Source: Desulfobaccales bacterium (GTDB lineage Bacteria; Desulfobacterota; Desulfobaccia; Desulfobaccales; 0-14-0-80-60-11). Taken from it: DNA of 64,000 nt. A program made the translations under genes and the position numbers. The notes under the pieces are model-generated. The model worked only from the letters and a program-made list of their open reading frames with translations, was not told the DNA's origin and made no database searches. The stretch lies in the NCBI GenBank assembly GCA_049585595.1, contig JBAVAG010000025.1, forward strand, positions 17,632-81,631, written 5' to 3'. Shown here piece by piece: positions 10,299 through 29,571 of the stretch. The first letter of the stretch is position 1. Each line of letters opens with the position of its first letter.

Positions 10299-10343
10299 GT
10301 TTTTGGGGTAATTTAGTCCGGATAGCTAAACGGAGAAAGGACC

Positions 10344-11243
10344 ATGGCCCAACCCAACATTCCGGCAATACCCATAGACAGCAAGAAAGTAATTTTTCCT
10401 ACCAAGTGGGACCGCTCCCTGGCTACTGAGGTTATTCGACACAGCGGCACGGACCTGAATCAATGTTTTCGCTGCGGCACGTGCGCCAGTGGTTGCCCGT
10501 TCATCCGGGCAATGGATTATCCTCCTTTCGGGGTTTTAATGCTATTGCAGTACGGTTTACGCCAGGAGGCCCTGAGCTGTGCGACGATCTGGATGTGCGT
10601 GGGCTGCAATACCTGCTCCAGCGAGTGTCCCATGGCCATTGACATGGCAGCGGTGATGGATACCCTGCGCCACATGGCCCTGGAGGAAGGGGTGGTCCCG
10701 GCTCATCCGGAGCCCCCGGTGCCGGTGGTGCACCGGCATAGCTGTGGGCCATTGGAACTCCTGGTGAGGGATGTCCAGCGTCTGAAAGATACCGCCAAAA
10801 GGAACCTCAATGGCTTGAAATTTGTGCCTAATTACGGGTGCACTCTCTTTCGCCCACCCTGGCACCAGAGGCAGGGGAAATTCATCTGGGGCGAAATGGA
10901 ACGAGTCCTGAGCGCCTTGGGGGCCCAGCCCCTGCCCAGGGCTTACTCCAATCGCTGCTGTGGTTCTTTCCTGGCCGCCAGCAGGCCGGATATTGCCACT
11001 CCCATGGTCAATATGATCATTGAAGGCGCTCAGGCCGCAGGCGCGGATTGCATCATTACGGCCTGCGCCACCTGTCAGCTCAATCTGGAGAATCGTTGTA
11101 CGCTGGAGAAGAAGCTGCCCGTGTTCCATTTTTCAGAAATCCTGGCCCTGGCCTTGGGGCAAGAATATGAGGGATGGTTCAGCCGCCACCTGGTGGGTTC
11201 GGATCCGCAGCCGATGCTCCAGAAACTGGGATTGGGCGGCTAA
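10344..11243 (+). CDS. HdrC-like 2x[4Fe-4S] domain fused to a single HdrB-type CCG domain (paralog 2, tandem duplicate)
   Basis: Same architecture as 9405-10298 and about 85% identical to it. Confidence 0.75.
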   Translation: MAQPNIPAIPIDSKKVIFPTKWDRSLATEVIRHSGTDLNQCFRCGTCASGCPFIRAMDYPPFGVLMLLQYGLRQEALSCATIWMCVGCNTCSSECPMAIDMAAVMDTLRHMALEEGVVPAHPEPPVPVVHRHSCGPLELLVRDVQRLKDTAKRNLNGLKFVPNYGCTLFRPPWHQRQGKFIWGEMERVLSALGAQPLPRAYSNRCCGSFLAASRPDIATPMVNMIIEGAQAAGADCIITACATCQLNLENRCTLEKKLPVFHFSEILALALGQEYEGWFSRHLVGSDPQPMLQKLGLGG

Positions 11244-11297
11244 CAATTTTTGAGAGGGTCGCCAAATTAGCAACATTTACCAACCTTAGAGGCCTTT

Positions 11298-15737: not shown

Positions 15738-15758
15738 GGCTAAAAAAGGAGTGCTAAG

Positions 15759-16178
15759 ATGAGCGACCAATATGAACCACTAGTGATCTCCTTCTGTTGC
15801 AACTGGTGTTCCTATGCCGGGGCAGATCTCGCAGGGGTCTCCAGGATTCAGTATCCGCCGAACGCGGTTATCATCCGGGTGATGTGCTCCGGGATGGTCC
15901 ATCCCAATCTGGTGATCGACGCCTTTACCAAAGGAGCTGACGGCGTCCTGGTATGCGGCTGACACCTGGGCGAATGTCATTACCTGGATGGTAATAAAAA
16001 AGCGAAAGACAGGGCAGAAGCTTTAGAGTTAATGTTGGAGGACTTTGGTTTGGAGCCGGAGCGCTTCCGCCTGGAGTGGATTTCTTCCTCGGAGGCCCAG
16101 AAATTCGCGGACGTGATGCGGGATATGATCGAGACGGTGCGGGCCTTGGGCCCCAGCTCTTATAGCACCAGGGCTTGA
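15759..16178 (+). CDS. mvhD: MvhD-type [2Fe-2S] subunit; in-frame TGA (probable selenocysteine) at 15960-15962
   Basis: Track ORF stops at ...[12 protein letters not shown]. The same frame continues [21 protein letters not shown]...[11 protein letters not shown]...LGP to TGA 16176-16178. The TGA occupies the Cys of the MvhD G-C-x3-C-H motif. Confidence 0.75.
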
Positions 16179-17754: not shown

Positions 17755-20700
17755 ATGACTACTGACAAGACGAAAACCGGCGCCATTAGCGTGATAGGGG
17801 GCGGCATCGCCGGCATGCAGGCCGCCCTGGATGCAGCCAATGCCGGTTTCAAGGTCTATCTGGTGGAGAAGGATATCTCCATCGGCGGGGTCATGGCCCA
17901 GTTGGACAAGACCTTTCCCACCAACGATTGCTCCACCTGCTTGATCTCCCCCAAGCTCATCGAGGTGGCCCGGCATCCGGACATCGAAATCATCACGCAG
18001 TCGGAGATCGCCGGCGTGGAGGGTGAGGCGGGCCGTTTCACCATCACCCTGCACCAGGAACCTCGCTACATCGACCCGGCCAAGTGCAACGCCTGCGGAG
18101 CCTGTGCGGAAGCCTGCCCGGTGCACCTGCCTTCGACCTTCGATGAAGGTTTGGGGGTACGCCCCGCCGCCTACCGGCATTTCCCCCAGGCGATTCCCGC
18201 CACCTTTGCCATCATGAAGGCCTCCCGGGCCCCCTGCGTGCGGGCCTGCCCGGCCAATTTGAGCGCCCAGGGCTACGTCCAGTTGATCAAGGAGCACAAA
18301 TTCCCGGAGGCCCTGGCCATTATCATGGACCGGCTGCCGCTGCCGGGGACCATCGGCCGCATCTGCCCGCATCCCTGCGAGGTCGACTGCCGGCGCCAGG
18401 AAGTGGATGAGCCCATCGCCATCTGCAACCTGAAGCGCTTCGTGGCCGACACCGTGGATTGGAGCACCCTGCCGGTGCCCGAAATCCCCCAGAGGAGCGA
18501 AAAGGTGGCCATCCTCGGGGCCGGTCCCTCGGGATTGAGTTGCGCCTACCACCTGGCCAGGAAGGGCATCCAGACGGTGATTTTCGAGGCTGCGCCTGAG
18601 GCTGGCGGCTGGCTGCGCTATGGCATCCCGGAATACCGGCTGCCCAGGAACGTGCTGCAGCAAGAAGTGGACTATATTCAGCGCCTGGGCGTACAGATCA
18701 ACTATAACTCCCCCATCGGCAAAGGCCGCACCATCAACGACCTGCTGACCCGGGACGGCTTCAACGCCGTGTTTATCGGGGTCGGAGCCCAGGATTCGCT
18801 GCGCATTCCGGTTCCCGGCCATGAGGCCCAAGGGGTCCTCTGGGGGGTCGAGTACCTCAAAGACTCGGCCATGGGCAAAAAGCTGGACTTGTCTGGCAAG
18901 AAGGTGCTGGTCATTGGCGGCGGCAACGTCGCCATGGACGCGGCCCGCACTGCGGTGCGGCAGAAGGGTAAAGTCACCCTGATCTGTCTGGAGTCGCCCG
19001 AAGAGATGCCCGCCTCCCCTTGGGAAGTGGAAGAGGCCAGGCACGAAGGCGTGGAGATCGTCACCCGCTGGGGCGTCAAGCAGGTCTTGGAGAAGGGCGG
19101 TAAGGTCACCGGCATCGAACTGAAGGCGGTGGAGCGGGTCTTTGACGAGCAGGGCCGCTTTGCCCCCACCTACTTTGAAGATCAGACCAGGCCCGAGACG
19201 GCCGACGTCATCATTATGGCCATCGGCCAGAAAACTGACCTGAGGTTCCTCACCGAAGCCGATAAAATCCAGCTCACTCCCCGGGGCCTCATCCAGGCGG
19301 ACCCGGTCACCAAGGCCACCAGCTGGGAAGGCGTCTTTGCCGGCGGCGATGTGGAGACCGGCCCCTATATCGCCATTGCCGCGGTGGCCGCGGGCCGCGA
19401 GGCGGCGGAGTCCATTGACCGCTACCTCCAGGGGAAGGATTCGCAGGCCGGCCGCGATCTGCCGCTGCGCCCCCTTCCAAAGGAACAGGGCAATTGGGCG
19501 CCCATCCGGGCCGACATTGAGAAGAAGCCGCGGGCCATGATACAGACCCCGCCGGTGGAAGAATGGATCAAGAGTTTTAAGGAAATCAACCTGGGCTACA
19601 GCGAAGCAGAAGCTGTGGCCGAAGCGGACCGCTGCATCAACTGCGGCATCTGTTCCGAATGTATGCAGTGTGTGGCTGCCTGCCAGGCCGGGGCCATCAA
19701 TCACCAGGATCAGCCCCGGACCCGGCAGCTCGAGGTGGGGGCCATGATCCTGGCCCCGGGCTTCCGGCCCTTCGACGCCGGGGAGAAGCCCGAATACGGT
19801 TACGGCCGCTATCCCAACGTGGTGACCTCGCTACAATTCGAGCGCCTCCTTTCCGCCACCGGGCCTTATGAGGGGCATGTCCTGCGTCCCAGTGACGGCG
19901 CCCCGCCCCGCAAGGTGGCTTGGATCCAGTGCGTGGGCTCCCGGGATGCCTCCTGCGGCCGGGAATACTGTTCCTATGTGTGCTGCATGTACGCCACCAA
20001 GCAGGCTATCATCGCCCGGGAGCACGACCACAACGTAGAACCCACCATTTTTTACATAGACTTACGGGCCCAGGGGAAGGGCTTCGACCGCTACGCCGAG
20101 CGGGCCGAGAAACAACACGGGGTGCGCTATGTCCGTAGTATGGTCTCCCGGGTGGCCCAGGATCCCCGCACTAAAAATCTGGAACTCAGTTTTGTGGATG
20201 ACTCCGGCCAGGTGCAAAGCGAAGTCTTTGACATGGTGGTGCTCTCCGTGGGCCTGAACCCCCATCCGGCTGCCCGGGAAATGGCGGCCAGGTGCGGCAT
20301 CGACACGGACCGCTACGGCTTTGCCGTGAGTCCGCCCCTGGAGCAGCCGTCCACCTCCCGGCCAGGGATCTTCGCCTGCGGCGTCTTCCAGTCTCCCAAG
20401 GACATCCCGGAGACCGTGGGCCAGGCTTCCGGCGCCGCCGGGGCGGCAGCGTCCATGCTCGCCGAGGCCCGGGGCACCCTGCTCACCAAGGAAGAATATC
20501 CTCCGGAAAAGGACATCAGCGGGGAGGCCCCCCGGATCGGCGTCTTTATTTGCCATTGTGGCATCAACATCGCCGGGGTGACGGACGTGGCGGCGGTGAC
20601 CGAATTCGCCCGGACGTTGCCCGACGTGGTCTACGCCGACGACTATACCTTCACCTGCTCCACCGATTCCCTGGACAGGATGCGCCAGGTGATCGAAACC

Positions 20701-22236
20701 GAAAACCTCAACCGGGTGGTGGTGGCCTCCTGCAGCCCCCGGACCCACGAACCCCTGTTCCAGGAGAACCTGCGGAAGGCCGGGTTGAACAAGTACCTCT
20801 TCGAAATGACCAACATCCGGGACCAGGACTCCTGGGTGCACCAGGGAACCCCGGAGTTGGCTACTGAGAAGGCCAAGGAACTGGTGCGCATGTCGGTGGC
20901 CCAGGCCCCCATCCTGGAGCCTTTGGACGACCTGCTCTTCCCGGTTAGCCAGCAGGCCCTGGTGGTGGGCGGCGGCCTGGCCGGCCTGACGGCCGCCCTG
21001 ACCATTGCCGACGGCGGCTACCAGGTCTATCTGGCGGAGTTGGAGGACCGGCTGGGCGGCAGCCTGGCCCGGCGGATGCGCCGCACCTTGGAGGGCCATG
21101 AAGTCCAGCCTTATCTCCAGGAACTGGTGGCCCGGGTGGAAAACCACCCCCGCATTGACTGGTTGCCCAACACCCAGGTCCTAAACGTGAAGGGCCATAT
21201 CGGCAAATTCCAGGGCACCCTGGAATCGGGCGAGGGCCGCCGGGAGGTGGAATTCGGCGCGGTGGTGATTGCCACCGGCGGTGAGGAATATAAACCGGAA
21301 GAATACCTTTACGGCCAGGACCCCCGAGTCCTTACCCAATTGGAAGTGGAGAACCTGCTGGCGGAATCCCCCGAAACCCTAGGCGCCGCTCCCAGGGTGG
21401 TGATGATCCAATGCGTCGGCTCCCGGGAGCCGGAACATCAGTATTGCAGCCGCACTTGCTGCGGCGAGGCCGTCAAGAACGCCATTACCATCAAGGAGCT
21501 CAATCCAGCCGCCCAGGTCTTCATCCTCTACCGGGATATCCGGACCTATGGCCTCAAGGAGATTTTCTACAAGAAGGCCCGGGAGCTGGGGGTGCAGTTC
21601 GTGCGCTTCGAGGTGGAGCAGAAACCGGAAGTGCAGGCCACGGGCCAGGGCCTGGAAATATCGGTCTTCGACCAGTCGTTGCAAGCGAACCTGGCGCTGG
21701 CCGCCGATTACCTGGTGCTCTCGACGGCCATCCGGCCCCATCCGATGAGCCGGAAAATCGCCCGGGTCTTCAAGCTGCCTTTTGACGCCGACGGCTTCTT
21801 CATGGAAGCCCACCTGAAACTGCGGCCCCTGGATTTCGCCGCCAGCGGCATCTTCCTCTGCGGGCTGGCTCACTGTCCCAAGTTTCTGGAGGAAAGCCTG
21901 GCCCAGGCCAAAGGCGCGGCGGCCCGGGCCCTGGGGGTGCTGGCCCACGCGGAGATGTACGTGGCCGGCACGGTGGCCCAGGTAGACCCGCTAAAATGCG
22001 TCGCCTGCCTGACCTGCTTGCGCACCTGTCCCTTCGGGGTCCCCAGGATGGATGAAGGCGAGGGGGTGGTGGTCATCGACCCCGCCTCCTGTCACGGCTG
22101 CGGCAGCTGCGCCAGCGCCTGCCCCCGGAAGGCCATTGCGGTGAGTCACTACCTGGACAACCAATTTAATGCCAAGATTTGCGCCTGCTGCACGCCCTTG
22201 CCCAAGGTCGACTTAAGCGAAAGGATTGGAGCCTGA
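17755..22236 (+). CDS. giant HdrA-like flavoprotein with GltD/NfnB-type module ('HdrL' type), Cys form
   Basis: Same domain order as 11298-15737. Cys sits at the position of the Sec codon in the paralog. Confidence 0.85.
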   Translation: MTTDKTKTGAISVIGGGIAGMQAALDAANAGFKVYLVEKDISIGGVMAQLDKTFPTNDCSTCLISPKLIEVARHPDIEIITQSEIAGVEGEAGRFTITLHQEPRYIDPAKCNACGACAEACPVHLPSTFDEGLGVRPAAYRHFPQAIPATFAIMKASRAPCVRACPANLSAQGYVQLIKEHKFPEALAIIMDRLPLPGTIGRICPHPCEVDCRRQEVDEPIAICNLKRFVADTVDWSTLPVPEIPQRSEKVAILGAGPSGLSCAYHLARKGIQTVIFEAAPEAGGWLRYGIPEYRLPRNVLQQEVDYIQRLGVQINYNSPIGKGRTINDLLTRDGFNAVFIGVGAQDSLRIPVPGHEAQGVLWGVEYLKDSAMGKKLDLSGKKVLVIGGGNVAMDAARTAVRQKGKVTLICLESPEEMPASPWEVEEARHEGVEIVTRWGVKQVLEKGGKVTGIELKAVERVFDEQGRFAPTYFEDQTRPETADVIIMAIGQKTDLRFLTEADKIQLTPRGLIQADPVTKATSWEGVFAGGDVETGPYIAIAAVAAGREAAESIDRYLQGKDSQAGRDLPLRPLPKEQGNWAPIRADIEKKPRAMIQTPPVEEWIKSFKEINLGYSEAEAVAEADRCINCGICSECMQCVAACQAGAINHQDQPRTRQLEVGAMILAPGFRPFDAGEKPEYGYGRYPNVVTSLQFERLLSATGPYEGHVLRPSDGAPPRKVAWIQCVGSRDASCGREYCSYVCCMYATKQAIIAREHDHNVEPTIFYIDLRAQGKGFDRYAERAEKQHGVRYVRSMVSRVAQDPRTKNLELSFVDDSGQVQSEVFDMVVLSVGLNPHPAAREMAARCGIDTDRYGFAVSPPLEQPSTSRPGIFACGVFQSPKDIPETVGQASGAAGAAASMLAEARGTLLTKEEYPPEKDISGEAPRIGVFICHCGINIAGVTDVAAVTEFARTLPDVVYADDYTFTCSTDSLDRMRQVIETENLNRVVVASCSPRTHEPLFQENLRKAGLNKYLFEMTNIRDQDSWVHQGTPELATEKAKELVRMSVAQAPILEPLDDLLFPVSQQALVVGGGLAGLTAALTIADGGYQVYLAELEDRLGGSLARRMRRTLEGHEVQPYLQELVARVENHPRIDWLPNTQVLNVKGHIGKFQGTLESGEGRREVEFGAVVIATGGEEYKPEEYLYGQDPRVLTQLEVENLLAESPETLGAAPRVVMIQCVGSREPEHQYCSRTCCGEAVKNAITIKELNPAAQVFILYRDIRTYGLKEIFYKKARELGVQFVRFEVEQKPEVQATGQGLEISVFDQSLQANLALAADYLVLSTAIRPHPMSRKIARVFKLPFDADGFFMEAHLKLRPLDFAASGIFLCGLAHCPKFLEESLAQAKGAAARALGVLAHAEMYVAGTVAQVDPLKCVACLTCLRTCPFGVPRMDEGEGVVVIDPASCHGCGSCASACPRKAIAVSHYLDNQFNAKICACCTPLPKVDLSERIGA

Positions 22237-22239
22237 GAG

Positions 22240-22680
22240 ATGGAATACAATCCGAGGATACTGGCCTTTGTTTGCACCTACTGCACCTACACGGCCGCAG
22301 ATATGGCGGGGTCGGCCCGGATGCAGTACCCCTACAACGTGCGCATCGTCAAGTTCCTGTGCACCGGCCGGATAGACATCATCCACATTTTGAAGGCCTT
22401 TGAGGCTGGCGCCGACGCCATCTTCGTGGGCGGCTGAGAGTTCGGAAACTGTCATTTCCTGGAAGGAAATCTCAGGGCCCGGGAACGAGTGGAATATGCG
22501 CAACAATTACTGGAAGAGACCGGTCTGGGGGCGGACCGCCTGGCCATGTATGAGATCGGTGCCTCTGAGGCCCCCAAGTGGGTGGCGGCGGTGAACGAAA
22601 TGACGGAAAAAGCTAAAGCTCTGGGGCCCAATCCTTTGAACCCGAGTTGGGGAGTAAAGGCAGTGGTCCCGAAAAACTAG
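22240..22680 (+). CDS. mvhD: MvhD-type [2Fe-2S] subunit; in-frame TGA (probable selenocysteine) at 22435-22437
   Basis: ...GADAIFVGG-TGA-EFGNCHFLEGNLRARERVEYAQQLL... joins track ORFs 22240-22437 and 22489-22680 in one frame. Same position as in the 15759-16178 gene. Confidence 0.75.
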
Positions 22681-22696
22681 AACTGGCGGTGCAAAG

Positions 22697-23377
22697 ATGA
22701 TCATCGCGGAACGGAAGCCCTTTGCGGAAATCAAGACGGCAGTGGCGCCCTTTGAGAAGGTCCTCTTTGTCGGGTGCGGCACCTGTGTGGCGGTTTGCCT
22801 GGCGGGCGGGGAAAAAGAGGTGGGGCTGCTGGCCTCCCAACTGAAGCTCGCCCGGGGACAGGAAGGCAAGCAGCCGAAGATCGGGGAGATCACGGTGGAG
22901 CGCCAGTGCGACCTGGAATTCATCCGGCCCCTGAGCGAGGCGGTCGCCGAGTATGACGCAGTCATTTCCACTGCCTGCGGCGCCGGGGTGCAGTTCCTGG
23001 CGGCCCTGCCCGAAATGAAACCGGTCTTCCCGGCCCTCAACACCACCTTCATCGGGGTCAACGAGGACGCAGGGTTTTATACCGAGCGCTGCCGGGCCTG
23101 CCACCAGTGTTACCTGGGAATCACCGGGGGGATTTGCCCGATGACCATGTGTCCCAAGGGATTGCTCAACGGTCCCTGCGGCGGCAACATCCGGGGCAAG
23201 TGTGAGGTCAATCCCGACCGGGACTGCGCCTGGTGCGAGATTTATGCCAGGCTGGAACGGCAAGGCCGGTTGGGGCAGATCGAACCGATTCTGCCGCTGC
23301 ACCCCTACGGCCGCAGCGTCACCCCGGGCACTGTGATCCACCCGGGTTATAAGAGGAGGTATGGCCTCCATGAGTAA
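22697..23377 (+). CDS. metV: MetV (methylene-THF reductase-associated Cys-rich small subunit)
   Basis: CRACHQCYLGITGGICPMTMCPKGLLNGPCGG motif. Lies directly upstream of metF and overlaps it. Confidence 0.8.
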   Translation: MIIAERKPFAEIKTAVAPFEKVLFVGCGTCVAVCLAGGEKEVGLLASQLKLARGQEGKQPKIGEITVERQCDLEFIRPLSEAVAEYDAVISTACGAGVQFLAALPEMKPVFPALNTTFIGVNEDAGFYTERCRACHQCYLGITGGICPMTMCPKGLLNGPCGGNIRGKCEVNPDRDCAWCEIYARLERQGRLGQIEPILPLHPYGRSVTPGTVIHPGYKRRYGLHE

Positions 23378-24254
23378 GCTCAAGGAAGCTTTGGAAGGTG
23401 GCCAGTTCCCCATCGTCATGGAAATTAAACCTCCTAAGGGCATTGACCTGGAGGGAATGCTGACTCCGGTGAAATCGCTCAACGGGAAGGTGACCGCCTT
23501 TGGGATTCCGGACAATGAAGATGCCAAGATGAAACTCTCGCCCCTGGCAGCGGCCAGGCTGGTCCAAGAGGCCGGAGGTGAACCCTTGCTCTTCATGACC
23601 TGCCGGGATCGCAACCGCCTGGCCCTGGAGAGCGATTTGCTGGGCGCCGGCGCCCTGGGCATAGAAAATATCTTGGCGTTGAGCGGCGATTTCGTCAGCC
23701 TGGGTGATCATCCCGACACCAAGCCGGTCTATGACGCCGACTCGGTACAGCTCCTGCAAATCGCCCGGGGGTTGATGACAGGTCATGATAGCGCCGGTCT
23801 TTCCCTGAAGGGAAACCCCCAATTCTATCTGGGCGCGGTCCTCATCCCGGAGGCCGACCCGGTAGCTCCCCAGCTCCTCAAGGTTAAGAAAAAGCTGGAG
23901 GCAGGAGTCGAATTTTTTATCACGGCACCCATGTTCACCGTGGAGAAGTTCCGCCAGTTCAGGCAATCATTGGGTTCCCCGGCTGTAAAATTTATGGCCT
24001 GCCTCAAGGTCCCCGAGGCCTCGGAAGTGGAGGCGGCTTCCTCGGGCCAGCACCGGAAGGTCTATTCCCTGCCCCCCGATGTAGTCCAGGAACTGGCCGG
24101 GACTGATCCCGAAGAAGTCTTGCAGAAGGGCGCCGCTCTGACCGGCCGTCTGCTCAAAGAGATTAGAGAGCAAAAGCTCGCCGACGGCGTCTATGTGAAA
24201 GCCCGTGGCCGGGGCGACCTGATGGCCCAGATTTTGAAGACCGCGGGTGCCTAA
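23361..24254 (+). CDS. metF: 5,10-methylenetetrahydrofolate reductase MetF
   Basis: TIM-barrel MTHFR pattern: VMEIKPPKG...FGIPDN...FMTCRDRNR...ILALSGD. Confidence 0.85.
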   Translation: MASMSKLKEALEGGQFPIVMEIKPPKGIDLEGMLTPVKSLNGKVTAFGIPDNEDAKMKLSPLAAARLVQEAGGEPLLFMTCRDRNRLALESDLLGAGALGIENILALSGDFVSLGDHPDTKPVYDADSVQLLQIARGLMTGHDSAGLSLKGNPQFYLGAVLIPEADPVAPQLLKVKKKLEAGVEFFITAPMFTVEKFRQFRQSLGSPAVKFMACLKVPEASEVEAASSGQHRKVYSLPPDVVQELAGTDPEEVLQKGAALTGRLLKEIREQKLADGVYVKARGRGDLMAQILKTAGA

Positions 24255-24272
24255 GATAGTGGGGAAACTCTC

Positions 24273-25520
24273 ATGAGAGACGATAAAGTCAATCCGGTGG
24301 TAGTCCTGGGCGGCGGCATTGCTGGGATTACCGCAGCCCTGGAGTTAAGCCGGGCCGGATTGGAGGCGGTCCTGGTGGAGAAGAGCCCCTTTTTCGGCGG
24401 GCGGGCCGCCAGCTTCGGCTGCAAAGCCACCGAGGTCTGCCAGCAATGTGGCGCCTGCCGGGTCGAACAAGGTTTGCGAGACCTGTTTTCGGCGCCGGGC
24501 CTCACCCTTTATGCCCACACGGAGCTGCTGGAAAGCCGGTCTGTTAACGGTTTGCTGCACCTGACCCTGAAGTCGCAGCCCCAGGTAATCGACTCCCACC
24601 GCTGCATCGATTGCGGCCTTTGCCTGGAGGAGTGCCCGGCGCCGGGAGGCGTGATAAGTGCGGCCTCCGCCGAGAACCATCCCCGTTTTGCGGTGAATCC
24701 GGCCGCCTGCCTCTATTTTCAAGACGGCTCCTGCCGCCGCTGCCAGGACCTCTGCCCCACCCAGGCCATCGATCTGGCCAGGTCCGAGACCGTGAGGCAA
24801 CTGGAGACCCCGAGCCTTATCTTGGCTACCGGCTATCAACCTGGGCAGCCTCCCTCCCGGGTGGCTTATACCAATTACTGCTGGCCCAACATCATCACCG
24901 GCCGGGAATTGGAGGAATTGATGCGGCAGGGCGGGCCTCTGCTCAGGCCCGGCGACGACCGGCCGGTGCGGCGTCTGGCCTTCATCCAGTGCGCGGGCAG
25001 CCGGGACCGGGAGCATTCGTATTGCTCCCGGGTCTGCTGCGCCTATGGGTTGCGCCTGGCTCGGCTGATCCACCATCGTTGGCCGGAGTGCCAGGTGACC
25101 ACTTTTTACATGGATCTGCAAAACATCGGCCCGGACCCCGAGAATTTCGAGGCTGCCGCCAGGCGGGAATTAGAATTGATCCGGGCCCTCCCCGGGGACG
25201 TGGTCGCCACGGACGATGGGGCCTTGAAATTGCCCTTTTTGGATGAAGCGAGCAACCGGGTGCGGTTTCGGGTGGTGGACCTCTTGGTCCTGGCAGTGGG
25301 TATCGCTCCTGGGCCAGACAACGTCAAACTGGCGGAAATGCTGCACCTGCAACTGAATCCGGACGGCTTCCTTAAGGACGGTCTGGATGGCACCCGGGCC
25401 GAAGCTCCAGGGATTTTCCTGGCCGGGACCGCCACCGGTCCCCAAAGCATCCTGGAATGCATCGCCCAGGGGACCCGGGCGGTCCGGCAGGTGCGTCAAT
25501 ATCTGGAGGCAAGGACGTGA
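24273..25520 (+). CDS. short HdrA-like FAD/FeS oxidoreductase
   Basis: VVLGGGIAGITAAL FAD fold, CIDCGLCLEECP and CRRCQDLCP clusters, FIQCAGSRD..YCSRVCC HdrA signature. Confidence 0.75.
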   Translation: MRDDKVNPVVVLGGGIAGITAALELSRAGLEAVLVEKSPFFGGRAASFGCKATEVCQQCGACRVEQGLRDLFSAPGLTLYAHTELLESRSVNGLLHLTLKSQPQVIDSHRCIDCGLCLEECPAPGGVISAASAENHPRFAVNPAACLYFQDGSCRRCQDLCPTQAIDLARSETVRQLETPSLILATGYQPGQPPSRVAYTNYCWPNIITGRELEELMRQGGPLLRPGDDRPVRRLAFIQCAGSRDREHSYCSRVCCAYGLRLARLIHHRWPECQVTTFYMDLQNIGPDPENFEAAARRELELIRALPGDVVATDDGALKLPFLDEASNRVRFRVVDLLVLAVGIAPGPDNVKLAEMLHLQLNPDGFLKDGLDGTRAEAPGIFLAGTATGPQSILECIAQGTRAVRQVRQYLEART

Positions 25521-28447
25521 ATATTGCCCATTCCCTGAAACCGGTGAATGTCTTGTTAATGCATGGCCCGGAGCTGGTCGCGGCGGGGCTCGACCCCCAG
25601 GACTTTTGTCAGGCAGTGGCGAGCTTACCGAATTGTCGGGTGTTGCCCGTGGATCCGGCCTGGCCGGCTGCAGAGCAAGAGGAGCAAGTGCGCAGCTTCC
25701 TCAGCCAGGACCAGGAGGTCAATCCGGTTATCCTGGCGGCCAAAGATCCAGAGCATCGGGGGGCCGGGGTAGCCCGCCTGTTACGGGAAGAGCTGGGATT
25801 GAACCCGGAATGCCTCATGGCGGTGGACCTGACCGCAGCCCTGGAACTCCCGGACCAAAGCGCCCGGACCGCGAAAGTGCTGGAAATGATTCGCCTGGCG
25901 GCCTCGCAAGCCAGCATGACCAGGCCCATTATCCCCCAGGCAATCCCGGTCAGCCGTCAAGTTCTGGTTTGGGGCGATTCCATTGCCGGTTTGAAAGCTG
26001 CCTGGGATTTGGCAGAGGTGGGCTATCCGATTATCCTGGCGAACCCCAAGCCGGCTCTCAACCCCTTACCCTTGGAGTATACCGAGGACCCGGCTGAGCT
26101 TAACTCTCTGGCCCGGCAGGTCCAGGAACACCACCTGATCAGGACGGTTTCTGCCGCCCGGGTCAAAGATTTCGGCGGGGTCGCCGGCAATTTCACCCTG
26201 CGTCTGGAGACGTCGCAAGGACGCCTAACCGATAAGGTGGGCGCGGTGGTTTTGGCCCCTGAGCTGGAGATGCAAGAAGCCCCCCACCGTTACCACGCTC
26301 CCGAACATCCCTCGGTGATCTCCCAGACCCAGCTGGAAATGCTGCTGACTGGCGTTTTCGAAGAGGATCTGCCAGAAACTGTGGCCATCCTGGTGGGTCT
26401 GGCCGGGGAGAGCCATCCCCTGGCCCTGGGGAGGGCTCTGAGGGCGGCATCCCGCCTGCTGGCGGCCGGCAGCCGGGTCTACCTGTTGGTGGGCAACGCC
26501 AAGCTGGCGGACCCGGGCCTGCAGCGGGCCCTGCAGGCCAACCAGGAGGCCGGTTTGCAGCTCATCAAGCTGAAAGAGTGCCCTACTGTTAGCGTCATGG
26601 ACGGGGGTCTGGGGGTGGCCTTCTTTGAGCCGGCCATCCGCGAGAATCTGGTTCTGCCAGTTGACCTGGTAGTTTATGATGAACAATACCAAGCCGCCGG
26701 GGGAAACGCCGGGGTGGCCGAACTTCTCCGCCTGCCCTTAGGAGCCGGGGGTTTTCTCCAGTCCGGCAATGTCCACCACACCCCGGTGGCCACCAGCCGA
26801 CGGGGCATTTATGTCATCGGACCAGGCCGGGGGATCATGGACCCGGAAGGGACCGACACCGATATAAGTGTCGCCGTTAATGAGATTCAGAGCCTCCTGG
26901 CCCAGGGCGAAGCCGTCGCGCCCCAGGGACGGGCCTCAGTGGACCGGGGCCGGTGTGTCATCTGCCTGACCTGCTACCGGCTCTGCCCTCACGGTGCCAT
27001 CACCTGGGACAATCGGGCCATCATCAATGAACTGGCCTGCCAGGGCTGCGGCATTTGCGCCAGCCAGTGCCCCAACGACGCCATTCAGGTCTGGAATTTC
27101 ACCGATGACCAAGTGGCGACGCAATTGGCGGCCTTCGATCCCCAATTGAGTCCCCGGATTGTGGCCTTCATGTGCCGCAACTCCGCCTGGGAGGCCTATC
27201 AAACCGCGGTGAAGCTCCATCATGCCTCTCTGCCGCTGGGCTTCACTCCCATCAAAGTGCCTTGTGCCGGCAAGGTTGACCCTGATTATTTGCTGCAGAC
27301 CTTTGCCTCCGGGGCCGACGGCGTGCTGGTCCTCTCCTGTCCCCAGGACAACTGCAAATCCACCCATGGTAACCTGTACGCCGAGTGGGGGGTGGAGCAG
27401 GTCCAGGGGCTCCTGGCTGAAGCCGGCATTGATCCCGGCCGGCTCCTGTTCCGTTCCCTGGCCGCCAACGCCCCCCGAGACTTGATCGACGCGGTGGATC
27501 AGGTGATGGCCAACCTCAGCCTCTCGGCCGCGGAAACGGACGAAGATTATCCTTTCTGGCTGACTACCGGGGCCAGCTTTACCCAGCATTTCAGCGGCGC
27601 CAAGAGTCAGCGTCAGCCCGTTCTCCCTCAGGAAAGCCGGGAGGTCTGCATCGAAATGCATTCCCAGGATGCCCGGGACTTGGGAATTCAGTCGGGAGAA
27701 CCAATCAAGGTTAACAGCCGCCAGGGCGCGATCACGGCCACCGCCCGGTTAACTGATCGGCTCAAGCCGGGCGCGGCCTTTATGCCGAGGCACTTCCTGG
27801 GGGACGTAGTTAACTGCCTGGTCAATTCGCCTCTGGACCCCATCGCCAGGATGCCAGCATATCATGGGTGTGCAGTCAATTTAGAAAAGTTGGTCGAGCA
27901 ACTTGAGGAAGTCTTTGGCATTAAGGTGCCGCCTTCCCGCTACCTCCACCGGGGTCATACCTGGGTGGCCTTGGAGAATGGCGGCAGGGTGCGCCTGGGC
28001 ATGGATGACTTTTCCCAAAAGGTCCTGGGTCCCGGCGATGAAATCAGGCTGCCGCTAATCGGGGAGGAAATTCGCCATGACCAGGCGGCGCTGGCCCTAT
28101 TCCGCCAGGGGAAAAAGGCCGCGGTCCTGGCGCCTCTGGACGGTATCATCGAAGCGGTGAATCCCAAGGTCCTGGCAAGACCGGGGCTGGCCCATGACGA
28201 CCCTTACGGCGAAGGCTGGCTAATGGTCGTCGCCGCCACCAATCTGAAGTCGGACCTGAAAAACCTGGTCTCCGGCGAGGGCAAGGGGCCTTGGCTAGAA
28301 GAGGAGTCCCTCAGGCTCCTGGCCATGCTGGAACCCTCGGTGGGCGCCGCCCTCCAGTCCGACCGGACGATCATCGATGACGTCTACGGTCAGTACCCCG
28401 AATTAGGCTGGGAGCGCCTGGCAAAGGAGTTCCTCCGGTCCGCCTGA
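25517..28447 (+). CDS. 976-aa mosaic protein: degenerate HdrA-like region, 2x[4Fe-4S], MvhD-like domain, molybdopterin-dinucleotide-binding (MopB C-terminal) barrel and GcvH-like domain
   Basis: GTG 25517 overlaps the upstream stop (GTGA); the start is uncertain. Motifs seen: CVICLTCYRLCP and CQGCGICASQCP; RIVAFMCRNSAW..GADGVLVLSCPQDNCKSTHGN; YPFWLTTG...DARDLGIQSGEPIKVNSRQG...PGAAFMP; HTWVALENGGRVRLGMDDF...DDPYGEGWL. Confidence 0.7.
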   Translation: MNIAHSLKPVNVLLMHGPELVAAGLDPQDFCQAVASLPNCRVLPVDPAWPAAEQEEQVRSFLSQDQEVNPVILAAKDPEHRGAGVARLLREELGLNPECLMAVDLTAALELPDQSARTAKVLEMIRLAASQASMTRPIIPQAIPVSRQVLVWGDSIAGLKAAWDLAEVGYPIILANPKPALNPLPLEYTEDPAELNSLARQVQEHHLIRTVSAARVKDFGGVAGNFTLRLETSQGRLTDKVGAVVLAPELEMQEAPHRYHAPEHPSVISQTQLEMLLTGVFEEDLPETVAILVGLAGESHPLALGRALRAASRLLAAGSRVYLLVGNAKLADPGLQRALQANQEAGLQLIKLKECPTVSVMDGGLGVAFFEPAIRENLVLPVDLVVYDEQYQAAGGNAGVAELLRLPLGAGGFLQSGNVHHTPVATSRRGIYVIGPGRGIMDPEGTDTDISVAVNEIQSLLAQGEAVAPQGRASVDRGRCVICLTCYRLCPHGAITWDNRAIINELACQGCGICASQCPNDAIQVWNFTDDQVATQLAAFDPQLSPRIVAFMCRNSAWEAYQTAVKLHHASLPLGFTPIKVPCAGKVDPDYLLQTFASGADGVLVLSCPQDNCKSTHGNLYAEWGVEQVQGLLAEAGIDPGRLLFRSLAANAPRDLIDAVDQVMANLSLSAAETDEDYPFWLTTGASFTQHFSGAKSQRQPVLPQESREVCIEMHSQDARDLGIQSGEPIKVNSRQGAITATARLTDRLKPGAAFMPRHFLGDVVNCLVNSPLDPIARMPAYHGCAVNLEKLVEQLEEVFGIKVPPSRYLHRGHTWVALENGGRVRLGMDDFSQKVLGPGDEIRLPLIGEEIRHDQAALALFRQGKKAAVLAPLDGIIEAVNPKVLARPGLAHDDPYGEGWLMVVAATNLKSDLKNLVSGEGKGPWLEEESLRLLAMLEPSVGAALQSDRTIIDDVYGQYPELGWERLAKEFLRSA

Positions 28448-28523
28448 TAGCGGGTCCGCCAGAGGTTTATGACGGTTTAGGCAGGCTAAAGCCTGCGGCT
28501 ACCAAGGGCATATAGGCAGACGG

Positions 28524-29556: not shown

Positions 29557-29571
29557 CCCGGGGATGCCGTA

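What the first reader, a model, noticed from the sequence alone, without database searches (positions are those of the whole stretch)
25517..28447. 976-aa mosaic protein: cofactor-site-eroded HdrA scaffold, 2x[4Fe-4S], MvhD, molybdopterin-dinucleotide-binding barrel and GcvH-like domain
Reading along the ORF gives five parts:
- **Degenerate HdrA-like region (about 470 aa).** It follows HdrA domain order but the signatures are degraded. VLVWGDSIAGLKAA replaces GGGxAG, and VAILVGLAGESHP replaces xIQCVGSRD.
- **Two ferredoxin motifs** (26950-27100).
- **A Cys-form MvhD domain** (about 27155-27480).
- **A beta-barrel** like the C-terminal molybdopterin-dinucleotide-binding domain of formate dehydrogenases and other MopB enzymes (YPFWLTTG...DARDLGIQSGEPIKVNSRQG...PGAAFMP; about 27545-27890). 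The catalytic MopB domains are absent.
- **A glycine-cleavage H-protein-like domain** (HTWVALENGGRVRLGMDDF...DDPYGEGWL; about 27930-28270). By my hand alignment, the Lys pair (QGKKAAV) sits 1-2 residues off the canonical lipoyl-Lys.

I do not recognise this domain combination as a described protein. Its start is translationally coupled (GTGA) to the short HdrA that follows metF. It could be an adaptor or electron-input subunit, for example one that links a lipoyl or H-protein-type carrier to the Hdr/MTHFR complex.
Basis: partly seen in the sequence, partly recalled or inferred. Interest (0 to 1): 0.65.

Follow-up and report, generated by a model that had tools for sequence, protein, structure and literature searches.

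The report
Pseudo-HdrA/MvhD subunit with lysine-less H-protein domain
This 976-residue protein of an uncultured sulfate-reducer relative (Desulfobaccales) is a real, conserved fusion of a cofactor-stripped HdrA copy, an electron-wire module (two 4Fe-4S sites plus MvhD), a lone formate-dehydrogenase-type cap domain and a glycine-cleavage-H-like domain without the lipoate lysine. It most likely acts as the non-catalytic partner and docking subunit of the enzyme complex that handles methyl-tetrahydrofolate in the Wood-Ljungdahl pathway.

Summary
**Observation: confirmed.** The ORF 25517-28447 is intact. The same architecture recurs in 14 genome loci and about 30 protein clusters from Desulfobaccales, Desulfobacca and Syntrophobacterales MAGs.

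**N-terminal part.**
- The first ~540 residues have a full HdrA fold.
- They lack the central glycine of GxGxxG, the inserted ferredoxin domain and all Fe-S cysteines before C480.
- The adjacent 415-aa HdrA, which overlaps the target by 4 nt, supplies exactly the missing parts.

**Operon.** The core order hdrL-mvhD-metV-metF-hdrA-X is conserved. Most relatives carry only a 677-aa X, without the Molydop and GcvH parts.

**GcvH-like domain.** It has the H-protein fold (TM about 0.9), but the hairpin tip is Gly and no lysine is conserved. A lipoyl-carrier role is therefore not supported.

**Wider family.** This domain plus a 55-aa tail belongs to a large uncharacterised lysine-less family:
- its members are often encoded next to HdrL/HdrB-like genes;
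- it is also found fused to HdrA C-termini and to a histidine kinase.

**Best reading.** The protein is a pseudo-HdrA/MvhD partner subunit of a MetFV-Hdr complex with a lineage-specific docking extension. It is a new variant of a known kind. No biochemistry exists for it.

The parts
25517..28447 (+). Whole gene, 976 aa: pseudo-HdrA, 2x[4Fe-4S] ferredoxin domain, MvhD, Molydop_binding barrel, GcvH-like domain, tail
   Evidence: Intact ORF. Full-length homologs at 52-100% identity. 14 syntenic genome loci. All domains have dN/dS below 1 in the more divergent comparisons.
25517..25936 (+). HdrA N-terminal-domain homolog (residues 1-140) without its Fe-S cysteines
   Evidence: Family profile positions 25-238 align to HdrA residues 21-240. 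HdrA 'AACTP/AACSP' reads 'AAKDP' here. No invariant Cys before C480. Model pLDDT 82-93.
25937..26926 (+). Thioredoxin-reductase-like (FAD) domain of HdrA with eroded sites (residues 141-470). Includes VLVWGDSIAGLKAA (nt 25961-26002) and VAILVGLAGESHP (nt 26381-26419). The inserted ferredoxin domain is missing.
   Evidence: Foldseek to HdrA and TrxR-fold flavoproteins. Alignment to solved HdrAs: G-A-G-I-A-G becomes G-D-S-I-A-G; the acidic residue at the end of beta-2 and the GG motif are absent; 'CVGSRD...CSRVCC' is absent; HdrA residues about 241-320 have no counterpart.
26933..27091 (+). C-terminal ferredoxin domain with two CxxCxxCxxxCP motifs (residues 473-525)
   Evidence: Pfam Fer4, 2 stretches, E=2.6e-11. 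C480, C483, C486, C490, C508, C511, C514 and C518 are invariant in 68 homologs. Aligns to the C-terminal ferredoxin domain of solved HdrAs.
27152..27517 (+). MvhD ([2Fe-2S]) domain, Cys form (residues 546-667)
   Evidence: Pfam FlpD 94 bits against a cutoff of 22.3. Matches PDB MvhD chains 5odc_D, 9sfi_K and 7bkb_F. C553, C583, C608 and C613 are invariant. C608 aligns with in-frame TGA codons of the two separate mvhD genes.
27554..27874 (+). Stand-alone MopB domain IV (Molydop_binding beta-barrel, residues 680-786); no catalytic MopB domains
   Evidence: Pfam PF01568, 85.7 bits, full profile. Best relatives are the C-termini of FdhA in Hdr-Fdh complexes: 7bkb_D E=3.9e-20, 9t1s_L E=1.4e-19. NCBIfam NasC/Fdh-alpha E about 1e-20 against FwdD 3.5e-6. 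It is the least constrained domain, dN/dS about 0.43-0.62 in most of the more divergent comparisons.
27926..28279 (+). GcvH-like domain (residues 804-921). Hairpin tip is Q864-G865; K866-K867 lie at nt 28112-28117. No cysteine.
   Evidence: Pfam GCV_H 64.5 bits. Model pLDDT 87.6. Foldseek to H-proteins: TM 0.89-0.91, rmsd 1.4-1.9 A. Lys is not conserved.
28280..28444 (+). Conserved ~55-aa helical tail that always accompanies this GcvH-like subfamily (residues 922-976)
   Evidence: Conserved W926, E930, L934, G943, D954-D955, P961, W965, F972-L973. Present in 222 of 260 family domains. Three to four helices predicted. No PDB match.
24273..25520 (+). Short HdrA (415 aa): FAD/TrxR domain plus inserted ferredoxin domain only. 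Its stop overlaps the target's start.
   Evidence: Pfam FAD/NAD Rossmann hits at residues 9-56 and Fer4_7 at 110-165. NCBIfam HdrA2 profile positions 141-560 of 777. The 4-nt overlap is conserved in homologous loci.
22697..24254 (+). metV (22697-23377) and metF (23361-24254)
   Evidence: Pfam DUF5981/MetV E=3.3e-34 and MTHFR E=5.4e-20. Syntenic in all fused and short-form loci.
22240..22680 (+). Separate mvhD gene with an in-frame TGA (22435) at the Cys608-equivalent position (candidate selenocysteine)
   Evidence: Translation and codon check. tblastn of the target runs through it.
17755..22236 (+). HdrL-type giant flavoprotein (1493 aa; HdrA modules plus a GltD-like NAD(P)H module)
   Evidence: Pfam and NCBIfam. 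Named after HdrL of Desulfobacterium autotrophicum (PMC2702500).
16271..17696 (+). hdrC-like (16271-16852) and hdrB-like CCG protein (16740-17696)
   Evidence: Pfam Fer4_17/Fer4_8 and CCG x2, E=1.1e-22.
9405..16178 (+). Upstream part of the same Hdr supercluster: two HdrD-like genes (9405-10298, 10344-11243), a second HdrL (11526-15737) and a second TGA-containing mvhD (15759-16178, TGA at 15960)
   Evidence: Pfam. Translation and codon check.

Best explanation
**What it is.** The protein is the non-flavin 'second protomer' and electron-wire subunit of a MetFV-linked Hdr complex. [quoted passage not shown]

**How it most likely works.**
- The N-terminal ~470 residues keep the HdrA fold but have lost the FAD loop, the inserted ferredoxin domain and the Fe-S ligands. 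They therefore serve as the dimer partner of the adjacent 415-aa HdrA.
- That short HdrA has the FAD site and the inserted ferredoxin domain. [quoted passage not shown]
- Together the two genes rebuild one asymmetric HdrA dimer with a single bifurcating flavin.
- The target supplies the C-terminal 2x[4Fe-4S] domain and a fused MvhD [2Fe-2S]. These form the wire between that flavin and a redox partner: HdrL/NAD(P)H, HdrBC-like or MetFV.
- The C-terminal extension is a lineage-specific, cofactor-less docking or scaffold module, not a lipoyl carrier. It consists of an FdhA-type cap barrel, a lysine-less GcvH-like domain and a tail.
- Free-standing copies of the GcvH-like+tail module are habitually encoded beside HdrL/HdrB-like genes. 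The fused copy probably tethers the MetFV-HdrA-MvhD unit to the HdrL/HdrBC proteins encoded just upstream.

**Shown:** anatomy, eroded motifs, complementarity, synteny, absence of a conserved Lys, and purifying selection.
**Inferred:** heterodimer formation, the electron path and the docking role.
For: **Domains and fold.**

**Cofactor sites.**
- No invariant Cys before C480, while the 8+4 Cys of the ferredoxin and MvhD domains are invariant in 68 homologs.
- GxGxxG reads GDSxA(G/A), and the acidic residue at the end of beta-2 is missing.
- The short HdrA covers HdrA2 profile positions 141-560 only, with an intact Rossmann motif and Fer4_7.

**Gene arrangement.**
- The 4-nt start/stop overlap is conserved.
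- The order hdrL-mvhD-metV-metF-hdrA-X holds in all full-length fused loci and in three short-form loci.

**Precedents.**
- Complementary tandem or fused HdrA pairs proposed to form heterodimers, including the HdrA of the Moorella MetFV-HdrABC-MvhD complex (PMC9012536).
- A characterised MetFV-HdrABC-MvhD MTHFR (PMC8515935).

**GcvH-like+tail module.**
- More than 500 homologs; 321 clusters at E<=1e-30.
- 21 of 62 stand-alone loci have an Hdr-type gene within 2 kb. Of the 34 loci with at least 5 kb on both flanks, 15 have one within 5 kb.
- Independent fusions to an HdrA C-terminus plus ferredoxin domain (P0300, P0312).
- The GcvH and tail parts have dN/dS of about 0.2-0.3 in most of the more divergent comparisons.
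Against: **Limits of the evidence.**
- No biochemical data exist for any member.
- Heterodimer formation and docking could not be modelled, because no multimer prediction was available.
- Loss of FAD is inferred from motifs only.

**Points that fit less well.**
- The degenerate loop W152-G153-D154-S155 is itself almost invariant, which hints at a retained but unknown role.
- Most family members (677 aa) work without the extension, and a close lineage deleted the GcvH part. Whatever the extension does is therefore accessory.
- The Molydop barrel is weakly constrained.
- The module also occurs away from Hdr genes and in a histidine kinase, which fits a sensor role as well as a docking role.
Confidence: 0.55

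Rival explanations
1. Lipoyl swinging-arm carrier. In this reading the GcvH-like domain is lipoylated on K866 or K867. It would shuttle a dithiol/disulfide, or an aminomethyl/C1 unit, between the Hdr catalytic CCG subunit or MetF and the electron wire, by analogy with LbpA in the sulfur-oxidising sHdr system.
For: - The domain has an H-protein fold.
- The window protein does have two lysines right after the hairpin tip, and one gapped HMMER alignment puts K866 on the lipoyl-Lys of 1onl.
- Precedent: Hdr-like clusters are invariably associated with lipoate-binding LbpA proteins (PMC6067878).
- gcvH and lpdA sit in acetogen Wood-Ljungdahl clusters next to metVF (PMC8515935).
- In the short free-standing paralogs next to HdrL, the motif G-[HRK]-K-A is fairly well kept.
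Against: - Lys is absent from the hairpin in many fused orthologs: GGT, GAG, GNQ, NER, SAQ, NAQ.
- In the family, 46% of 260 domains have no Lys at positions 74-77, and the tip position is Gly in 52%.
- The HdrA-fused relatives P0300 and P0312 have Arg or no basic residue there.
- There is no Cys in the domain, whereas LbpA has two strictly conserved Cys and a strictly conserved Lys.
- The score is below the NCBIfam GcvH cutoffs: 52-57 bits against 116-117.
- The domain was deleted in a lineage that is 88-91% identical.
- No lipoate ligase was seen in the window or in the inspected loci.
Confidence: 0.07
2. Sensor or regulatory appendage. In this reading the GcvH-like+tail module binds a small molecule or a redox signal. 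It would gate electron flow through the MvhD/ferredoxin wire instead of docking a partner protein.
For: - The same module, with the Cys-rich N-domain, forms the N-terminal input region of a histidine kinase (P0348).
- Free-standing copies in Desulfobacca and relatives sit next to a PAS histidine kinase and a sigma-54 response regulator.
- The module occurs in tandem arrays of 2-4 paralogs, a pattern common for sensory or adaptor proteins.
- It is strongly conserved without any recognisable cofactor site.
Against: - No ligand-binding pocket or motif was identified.
- The fused copy lacks the Cys-rich N-domain that accompanies the kinase-linked and most free-standing forms.
- Linkage to Hdr genes and the fusions to HdrA C-termini are equally explained by docking.
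Confidence: 0.15
3. Evolutionary relic. In this reading the Molydop barrel and GcvH-like domain are leftovers of a neighbouring fdhA/gcvH-like gene captured by a deletion or fusion. They would have no present function, and the protein would work just like the 677-aa forms.
For: - Clusters of the type GcvH-like-hdrL-mvhD-fdhB-fdhA(Sec)-hdrC exist in the same clade. Their FdhA C-terminus is about 35% identical to the target barrel.
- The barrel is the least constrained part.
- Most of the family lacks the extension.
- One lineage lost the GcvH part and persists as several clusters of 789-791 aa.
Against: - The extension is retained from 100% down to 52% identity in Desulfobaccales and Syntrophobacterales.
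- The GcvH-like and tail parts are better conserved than the pseudo-HdrA part: for example 63-83% against 53-72% identity, with dN/dS of about 0.2-0.3 in most comparisons.
- The family-invariant residues of the free-standing proteins are all kept.
Confidence: 0.15
4. Annotation or assembly artefact: two or three genes merged by sequencing errors, or chance motif matches.
For: - A few database entries are split or truncated: P0040 (747 aa) plus P0127 (245 aa) on one 6-kb contig, and partial entries.
Against: - The reading frame is uninterrupted here and in 8 independently assembled genomes whose genes were re-extracted, giving 963-980 aa.
- There are about 30 full-length protein clusters.
- Domain E-values range from 1e-17 to 1e-27.
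Confidence: 0.01

Closest known systems
HdrA2 of Methanosarcina acetivorans and QmoB of sulfate reducers (HdrA-MvhD fusion proteins)
   Same: - The order is the same: HdrA fold, then C-terminal 2x[4Fe-4S] ferredoxin domain, then MvhD, in one polypeptide.
- The best NCBIfam hit is HdrA2, profile positions 439-768.
- JGI labels some homologs QmoB.
- Like QmoA/QmoB, it is paired with a ~415-aa short HdrA.
   Different: - HdrA2 and QmoB are flavoproteins; the Qmo complex holds two FAD (PMC3333476). Here the FAD loop, the inserted ferredoxin domain and the N-terminal and TrxR-domain cluster ligands are gone.
- The score is 215 bits against the HdrA2 cutoff of 1100.
- There is no qmoC or aprBA in the window.
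- It has an extra Molydop_binding barrel and an extra GcvH-like domain.
MetFV-HdrABC-MvhD methylenetetrahydrofolate reductase of Moorella thermoacetica (hexameric, '6S-type' MTHFR)
   Same: - Same gene neighbourhood logic: metV, metF, hdrA, an MvhD module, and hdrB/hdrC-like genes.
- The Moorella HdrA is described as two fused HdrA units with complementary losses (PMC9012536; PMC8515935).
   Different: - Here the two HdrA halves are separate, translationally coupled genes.
- One half has lost the flavin site altogether, whereas in the ANME survey all HdrA groups were reported to retain FAD residues.
- MvhD is fused to the pseudo-half.
- Giant HdrL proteins and Sec-type MvhD genes are part of the cluster.
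- The C-terminal extension has no counterpart.
Tandem or fused heterodimeric HdrA paralogs of ANME archaea (HdrA3/4, 5/6, 12/13)
   Same: Complementary presence and absence of domains between two adjacent HdrA genes, implying an asymmetric dimer (PMC9012536).
   Different: [quoted passage not shown]
- Here one partner is a true pseudo-enzyme with no TrxR-domain cofactor ligands.
LbpA lipoate-binding proteins of the sulfur-oxidising sHdr system, and canonical GcvH
   Same: - H-protein fold.
- Genomic coupling of GcvH-like proteins to Hdr-like gene clusters (PMC6067878).
   Different: - LbpA and GcvH have a strictly conserved lipoyl-Lys, and LbpA also has two conserved Cys.
- This family has Gly at the hairpin tip, no conserved Lys and no Cys in the fused copy, and carries a unique 55-aa tail.
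- Its score is below the NCBIfam GcvH cutoffs.
FwdD/FmdD and the C-terminal cap (domain IV) of FdhA/NasC/NapA
   Same: - The Molydop_binding beta-barrel is covered over the full Pfam profile.
- FwdD is the precedent for domain IV existing apart from the catalytic MopB domains (established knowledge of formylmethanofuran dehydrogenase).
   Different: - By sequence it is closer to FdhA/NasC C-termini (E about 1e-20) than to FwdD (3.5e-6).
- No MopB catalytic partner is present in the operon or in any fused locus.
- It is weakly constrained, so it is probably not a pterin-binding cap.

Membership tests
HdrA (bifurcating flavoprotein subunit of heterodisulfide reductase) | Overall HdrA fold (N-terminal domain, TrxR-like domain, C-terminal ferredoxin domain) | tested here: met
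   Foldseek to 8rvu_A, 7bkd_A and 5odc_A: about 650 aligned columns, E=1.7e-33 to 3e-31. The profile aligns to HdrA residues 21-240 and 324-651.
HdrA (bifurcating flavoprotein subunit of heterodisulfide reductase) | FAD dinucleotide-binding signature (GxGxxG plus an acidic residue at the end of beta-2) | tested here: not met
   G-D-S-I-A-G aligns to G-A/G-G-I/V-A-G of solved HdrAs. 'ILANPKP' replaces 'vylvDk/ymvEk', and there is no GG motif. Actual FAD content is not testable here.
HdrA (bifurcating flavoprotein subunit of heterodisulfide reductase) | Cys ligands of the N-terminal-domain and TrxR-domain [4Fe-4S] clusters, and the inserted 2x[4Fe-4S] ferredoxin domain | tested here: not met
   No invariant Cys before residue 480 in 68 homologs. 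HdrA residues about 241-320 have no counterpart, and 'CVGSRD...CSRVCC' is replaced.
HdrA (bifurcating flavoprotein subunit of heterodisulfide reductase) | Curated family score (NCBIfam HdrA2 / HdrA) | tested here: not met
   215.5 bits against a cutoff of 1100 (HdrA2); 118.5 against 1400 (HdrA).
MvhD / FlpD ([2Fe-2S] electron-transfer subunit) | Pfam PF02662 above the gathering score, and four conserved Cys | tested here: met
   94.2 bits against 22.3, profile positions 1-119 of 123. C553, C583, C608 and C613 are invariant. PDB MvhD chains matched.
MopB molybdo/tungsto-pterin enzymes (formate dehydrogenase, nitrate reductase) | Catalytic Molybdopterin domain (PF00384) and N-terminal Fe4S4 domain (PF04879), in addition to domain IV | tested here: not met
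   Only PF01568 (domain IV) is found. By contrast the FdhA of L064 shows all three.
GcvH / lipoyl-carrier H-proteins (including LbpA) | H-protein fold | tested here: met
   Pfam GCV_H 64.5 bits against 22.2. Foldseek TM 0.89-0.91 and rmsd 1.4-1.9 A to 1onl, 3a8j and 3klr.
GcvH / lipoyl-carrier H-proteins (including LbpA) | Conserved lipoyl-lysine at the tip of the hairpin | tested here: not met
   The tip is Q864-G865. Lys is absent in many orthologs. Family-wide, K is 4% at the tip position, 34-35% at +1 and +2, and 46% of domains have none. Whether K866/K867 of this particular protein is modified is not testable here.
GcvH / lipoyl-carrier H-proteins (including LbpA) | Curated equivalog score; for LbpA, two strictly conserved Cys | tested here: not met
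   52.5 bits against 115.85 (TIGR00527); 56.9 against 117 (NF002270). Residues 791-976 contain no Cys (sequence; criterion from PMC6067878).
QmoB (quinone-interacting membrane-bound oxidoreductase subunit B) | Part of qmoABC next to aprBA, with the membrane subunit QmoC; a flavoprotein | tested here: not met
   The neighbours are metV, metF, hdrA, hdrL and kdp. No qmoC or apr genes are in the window or in homologous loci. The FAD motif is eroded.
MetFV-Hdr-MvhD type methylenetetrahydrofolate reductase complexes | metV-metF clustered with hdrA, an MvhD module and hdrB/C-like genes | tested here: met
   Window gene order. Conserved in 12 full-length fused loci and 3 short-form loci.
MetFV-Hdr-MvhD type methylenetetrahydrofolate reductase complexes | Physical complex with MTHFR activity | not testable with these tools
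   Requires purification and assay. No multimer prediction was available.

The most novel reading that the evidence does not exclude
The GcvH-like+tail module may define a new class of lipoate-independent H-protein-fold partners of Hdr-type enzymes. The family comprises hundreds of clusters in Desulfobaccales, Syntrophobacterales and relatives.

- **Proposed role.** It would be a dedicated recognition or docking (or signal-relay) module for HdrA/HdrL/CCG proteins. It would be the reductive-side counterpart of the LbpA-sHdr partnership, having abandoned the lipoyl arm.
- **Role of this protein.** The 976-aa protein would be the 'Rosetta stone' fusion that hard-wires the module to the MvhD end of a pseudo-HdrA/HdrA heterodimer. 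This would assemble a MetFV-HdrA-MvhD-HdrL/HdrBC supercomplex with a single bifurcating flavin for methyl-THF oxidation.
Probability: 0.25. Interest if true: 0.7.

Novelty: new variant of a known kind. Interest (0 to 1): 0.55.

Why it matters
How acetate-oxidising and autotrophic sulfate reducers couple the methyl-/methylene-THF step (E0' about -200 mV) to their electron carriers is unresolved. MetFV-Hdr-MvhD complexes have been studied only in a few acetogens.

This locus adds three things:
- **A clade-wide operon.** The order hdrL-mvhD(Sec)-metVF-hdrA-X recurs across relatives. In it one HdrA protomer has become a pseudo-enzyme, which predicts an obligately asymmetric complex with a single flavin. 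That prediction can be tested directly by flavin stoichiometry and cryo-EM.
- **A protein-level link.** The fusion connects Hdr machinery to a large, unannotated, lysine-less branch of the H-protein fold. Databases currently mislabel that branch as 'glycine cleavage system H'.
- **A caution for annotation.** Neither 'hydrogenase iron-sulfur subunit', 'QmoB' nor 'GcvH' describes what is encoded here. Metabolic reconstructions that count these as glycine-cleavage or Qmo genes will be wrong.

Tried and rejected
1. **Lipoyl-carrier reading.** Checked by ortholog alignment, family-wide residue counts, a structural model of the hairpin, and comparison with LbpA criteria. Rejected as a family property.
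2. **Merged-genes artefact.** Rejected.
3. **QmoB identity (JGI label).** Rejected on genomic context and FAD motif.
4. **FwdD-type role for the barrel.**
   - One short-form relative (L082) has FwdB-like and FwdA-like genes right after the gene.
   - No other locus, nor the window, has them.
   - The barrel is FdhA/NasC-like rather than FwdD-like.
   - Kept only as a side note.
5. **A GcvH-like paralog elsewhere in the window.** None found.
6. **Lipoate ligase or lipoyl synthase genes near GcvH-like arrays.** None seen in L002, L004 or L033. The radical-SAM genes in L004 carry SPASM domains.
7. **Structured RNA or regulatory signal in the 1.1-kb gap downstream (28447-29572).** No Rfam match, and promoter and terminator counts are at chance level.
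9. **Literature.** Searches for this fusion or for Hdr-linked lysine-less GcvH-like proteins found nothing specific.
10. **dN/dS caveat.** dS is unusually low relative to dN in several pairs, and the closest pair (L006) is too similar to be informative. Only the ranking of domains is used.

Full report
**1. The observation**

The ORF from GTG 25517 to the stop at 28447 is uninterrupted and encodes 976 aa.
- **Start codon.**
  - The GTG overlaps the TGA of the upstream hdrA (GTGA), and a GGAGG lies 9 nt upstream.
  - Homolog N-termini align to this start, not to the in-frame ATG at 25457.
- **Pfam hits.**
  - Two Fer4 motifs, residues 473-525.
  - FlpD/MvhD, residues 548-667, 94 bits.
  - Molydop_binding, residues 680-786, 86 bits, full profile.
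  - GCV_H, residues 809-921, 64.5 bits.
- **NCBIfam and PDB sequence searches agree.**
  - HdrA2 profile positions 439-768 match residues 340-667.
  - The barrel matches the C-termini of NasC, Fdh-alpha and NapA.
  - Its best solved relatives are FdhA of the Methanospirillum Fdh-Hdr-Fmd complex (7bkb_D, E=3.9e-20) and 9t1s_L.

**2. The N-terminal half is a cofactor-stripped HdrA**

An AlphaFold model built on 68 homologs has pLDDT 80-95 over residues 1-670. It superposes on complete HdrA chains (8rvu_A, 8rvy_A, 7bkd_A, 5odc_A) with about 650 aligned columns, 18-19% identity and E down to 1.7e-33.

A family profile aligned to solved HdrA sequences shows which sites are lost:
- 'vlvWGdsfaalkaa' lies on 'mviGaGiaGiqsa'. 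The middle Gly of GxGxxG is Ser, and an Asp precedes it.
- The acidic residue at the end of beta-2 and the GG motif are missing.
- The N-domain ligand 'AACTP' is 'AAKDP'.
- 'CVGSRD...CSRVCC' is replaced.
- The inserted ferredoxin domain (HdrA residues about 241-320) has no counterpart.

No cysteine before C480 is invariant. The eight Cys of the C-terminal ferredoxin domain and four Cys of MvhD are invariant. Loss of FAD is inferred from these motifs and was not measured. Oddly, W152-G153-D154-S155 is itself nearly invariant.

**3. Complementarity with the neighbouring gene**

- **The 415-aa HdrA (24273-25520).**
  - It has an intact Rossmann motif and an inserted Fer4_7 domain.
- **Relation to the target.** Profile-profile comparison aligns the target's residues 258-462 with residues 198-412 of the short HdrA (94% probability).
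- **Combined content.** The two translationally coupled genes together contain one copy of each HdrA element plus MvhD.
- **Precedent.** Complementary tandem or fused HdrA paralogs proposed to form asymmetric dimers have been described in ANME archaea and noted for the Moorella MetFV-HdrABC-MvhD enzyme. All of those were reported to retain FAD residues (PMC9012536).

**4. Genomic context**

The window carries one large Hdr supercluster:
- two HdrD-like genes (9405-11243);
- HdrL (11526-15737);
- mvhD (15759-16178);
- hdrC-like and hdrB-like genes (16271-17696);
- a second HdrL (17755-22236);
- mvhD (22240-22680);
- metV, metF, the short hdrA and the target.

Both separate mvhD genes have an in-frame TGA at the position of the target's C608. 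Sec-MvhD and HdrL were first described in Desulfobacterium autotrophicum (PMC2702500).

The protein cluster of the window gene occurs in many Desulfobaccales MAGs, where NCBI names it 'hydrogenase iron-sulfur subunit'.

**5. The family**

Homologs fall into three length classes:
- **About 976 aa.** Full architecture, 52-100% identity, from Desulfobaccales, Desulfobacca sp. and Syntrophobacterales.
- **About 789 aa.** Has the Molydop barrel but no GcvH part, 88-91% identity.
- **About 677 aa.** Has no extension and forms the majority.

Evidence on each class:
- In 12 full-length fused genome loci and three short-form loci, the order is hdrL-mvhD-metV-metF-hdrA-X, and the hdrA/X overlap is conserved.
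- The 789-aa form is a secondary truncation. In L001 the homology continues past the stop into the first residues of the GcvH part, and a small inverted relic follows.
- The extension is therefore a lineage-specific accretion on a widespread core, and its GcvH part can be lost.

**6. The GcvH-like domain is not a lipoyl carrier**

- **Fold.**
  - A dedicated model (109 sequences, pLDDT 87.6) superposes on H-proteins at TM 0.89-0.91 and rmsd 1.4-1.9 A.
  - Its hairpin tip is Q864-G865, with K866-K867 just after. Ungapped HMMER alignments put G865 on the lipoyl-Lys, and one gapped alignment puts K866 there.
- **Orthologs.** The motif varies: GEK, GAK, GGT, GAG, GNQ, NER, KEQ, SAQ, NAQ, KNP.
- **Wider family, 260 domain instances.**
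  - The tip position is Gly in 52% and Lys in 4%.
  - The two following positions are Lys in about 35% each.
  - No Lys is nearby in 46% of the domains.
- **Other criteria.**
  - The fused domain has no Cys. LbpA proteins have a strictly conserved Lys and two conserved Cys (PMC6067878).
  - Scores are below the NCBIfam GcvH cutoffs.

**7. What the GcvH-like+tail module is**

- **Size of the family.**
  - Residues about 800-976 have more than 500 homologs.
  - An exhaustive profile search finds 321 cluster representatives at E<=1e-30.
- **Typical forms.** Most are free-standing proteins of about 175 aa, or of about 293 aa with an N-terminal Cys-rich region (CIWMEAGVIDxKIC...FDCxxC). They are annotated 'glycine cleavage system H'.
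- **The tail.** Nearly all carry the same ~55-aa helical tail (222 of 260 domains). The tail has no PDB match.
- **Genomic setting (62 stand-alone loci).**
  - The genes form tandem arrays of up to 4, rarely 6.
  - 21 loci have an HdrL/HdrA/CCG/MvhD gene within 2 kb.
  - Of the 34 loci with at least 5 kb on both flanks, 15 have one within 5 kb.
  - One example is the cluster GcvH-like-hdrL-mvhD-fdhB-like-fdhA(Sec)-hdrC (L064).
- **Other fusions.**
  - HdrA C-terminus + ferredoxin domain + module (P0300, P0312; no Lys).
  - Three GCV_H domains + a GlcD-like flavoprotein + an HdrD-like Fe-S/CCG part (P0335).
  - Cys-rich domain + module + histidine kinase (P0348).
- **Exceptions.** Some stand-alone loci are instead next to efflux genes, a sigma-54 two-component system and a peptidase.

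**8. Selection**

Codon comparisons with eight orthologs give dN/dS below 1 for every domain in the more divergent comparisons. Ranges below describe most of those comparisons.

| Domain | dN/dS (approx.) |
|---|---|
| Ferredoxin and MvhD | 0.11-0.2 |
| GcvH-like | 0.2-0.3 |
| Tail | 0.2-0.3 |
| Pseudo-HdrA | 0.3-0.4 |
| Molydop barrel | 0.43-0.62 |

Absolute values are unreliable because dS is low and noisy, and the closest pair (L006) is uninformative. The ranking says that the GcvH-like+tail part is functional and that the barrel is closer to a spacer.

**9. Most likely mechanism**

- **Shown:** anatomy, lost and retained ligands, complementarity, synteny, and purifying selection.
- **Inferred:**
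  - The target dimerises with the short HdrA to give a single-flavin HdrA core.
  - Electrons pass between that FAD and a partner through the target's two [4Fe-4S] clusters and the MvhD [2Fe-2S]. This follows the path in solved Mvh/Fdh-Hdr complexes (established from 5odc and 7bkb; summarised in PMC9012536).
  - MetFV provides the methylene-/methyl-THF site.
  - HdrL provides NAD(P)H, and HdrBC-like proteins provide the third redox branch.
  - The extension anchors or positions one of these partners.
- **Alternatives.** They are a sensor role, a relic, or a lipoyl carrier. The last is the least likely.

**10. Comparison and novelty**

The protein works most like the MvhD-bearing HdrA fusions (HdrA2, QmoB) and sits in a Moorella-type MetFV-Hdr-MvhD context. 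It fails the defining tests for several labels:
- for HdrA: the FAD motif, the cluster ligands and the curated score;
- for QmoB: the genomic context and the FAD motif;
- for MopB enzymes: there are no catalytic domains;
- for GcvH and LbpA: the lysine, the cysteines and the curated score.

No paper in the searchable library describes the fusion or the lysine-less Hdr-linked GcvH-like family. I rate it a new variant of a known kind. Its interest is moderate to good. That rests mainly on the testable prediction of a pseudo-HdrA/HdrA heterodimer in MTHFR complexes of sulfate reducers, and on the pointer to an uncharacterised Hdr-associated protein family.

Noticed in passing
window 22240-22680 (TGA at 22435) and 15759-16178 (TGA at 15960): Two separate mvhD genes follow the two HdrL genes. 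Each has an in-frame TGA exactly where the target has Cys608 (VGG-U-EFGNCH and VCG-U-HLGECH). They are candidate selenocysteine MvhDs, so ORF callers split or truncate them. No SECIS analysis was done.
   Followed up: partly
window 9405-28447: A 19-kb single-strand Hdr supercluster: two tandem HdrD-like genes (Fer4_8+CCG), HdrL (1403 aa), mvhD, hdrC-like, hdrB-like, HdrL (1493 aa), mvhD, metV, metF, hdrA and the target.
   Followed up: partly
L001:3047-3125 (ENA ERZ27249763 k141_271321): In the 789-aa variant (88-91% identical), homology to the window protein runs past the stop codon into the first residues of the GcvH-like part. It is followed by a 14-residue fragment of the domain in inverted orientation. 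This is the footprint of a recent deletion or inversion that removed the domain.
   Followed up: yes
P0143 (Desulfobacca acetoxidans WP_013705970), L002:10001-10915, and many loci L015-L081: Free-standing GcvH-like+tail proteins of about 293 aa carry an N-terminal Cys-rich region (KKPCIWMEAGVIDxKICxxxFDCxxCEFD ... CxxCxFD) with no Pfam match. They occur in tandem arrays of 2-4 paralogs. In Desulfobacca they sit next to a PAS histidine kinase, a sigma-54 response regulator and a Peptidase_M54 gene.
   Followed up: partly
P0348 (505 aa), P0335 (1391 aa), P0300 and P0312: Other fusions of the GcvH-like module: Cys-rich domain + module + HisKA/HATPase histidine kinase; three GCV_H domains + FAD_binding_4/FAD-oxidase_C + Fer4_8 + two CCG domains; and HdrA C-terminus + 2x[4Fe-4S] + module without MvhD or barrel.
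   Followed up: partly
L082:11254-13899 (GCA_049322315.1, Thermodesulfobacteriota MAG): Directly downstream of a 677-aa short-form homolog lie a FwdB-like gene (formylmethanofuran dehydrogenase subunit B model, 286 bits, below cutoff) and a FwdA-like amidohydrolase. No FwdD-like barrel is present. This was not seen in any other locus or in the window.
   Followed up: partly
L064:9914-18259: Cluster of a GcvH-like protein (312 aa), an HdrL-like protein (946 aa), mvhD, a ferredoxin, FdhA with an in-frame stop (probably Sec) and all three MopB domains, and an HdrC-like protein. The C-terminal barrel of this FdhA is about 35% identical to the target's barrel.
   Followed up: partly
window 29572-33416 (+) and 41993-46031 (-): Two Kdp potassium-ATPase gene sets lie on opposite strands (kdpA/kdpB pairs). 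The kdpA at 29572 is shorter (514 aa, covering profile positions 2-470 of 548) than the one at 44202-46031 (608 aa).
   Followed up: no
window 28447-29572: A gap of about 1.1 kb between the target's stop and kdpA has no ORF of 80 aa or more, no Rfam match, and no promoter or terminator signal above chance.
   Followed up: partly
window 25961-25978 (residues W152-G153-D154-S155): The degenerate remnant of the FAD loop is itself almost invariant in 68 homologs down to 48% identity. That is more than expected for a dead site, and its role is unknown.
   Followed up: no
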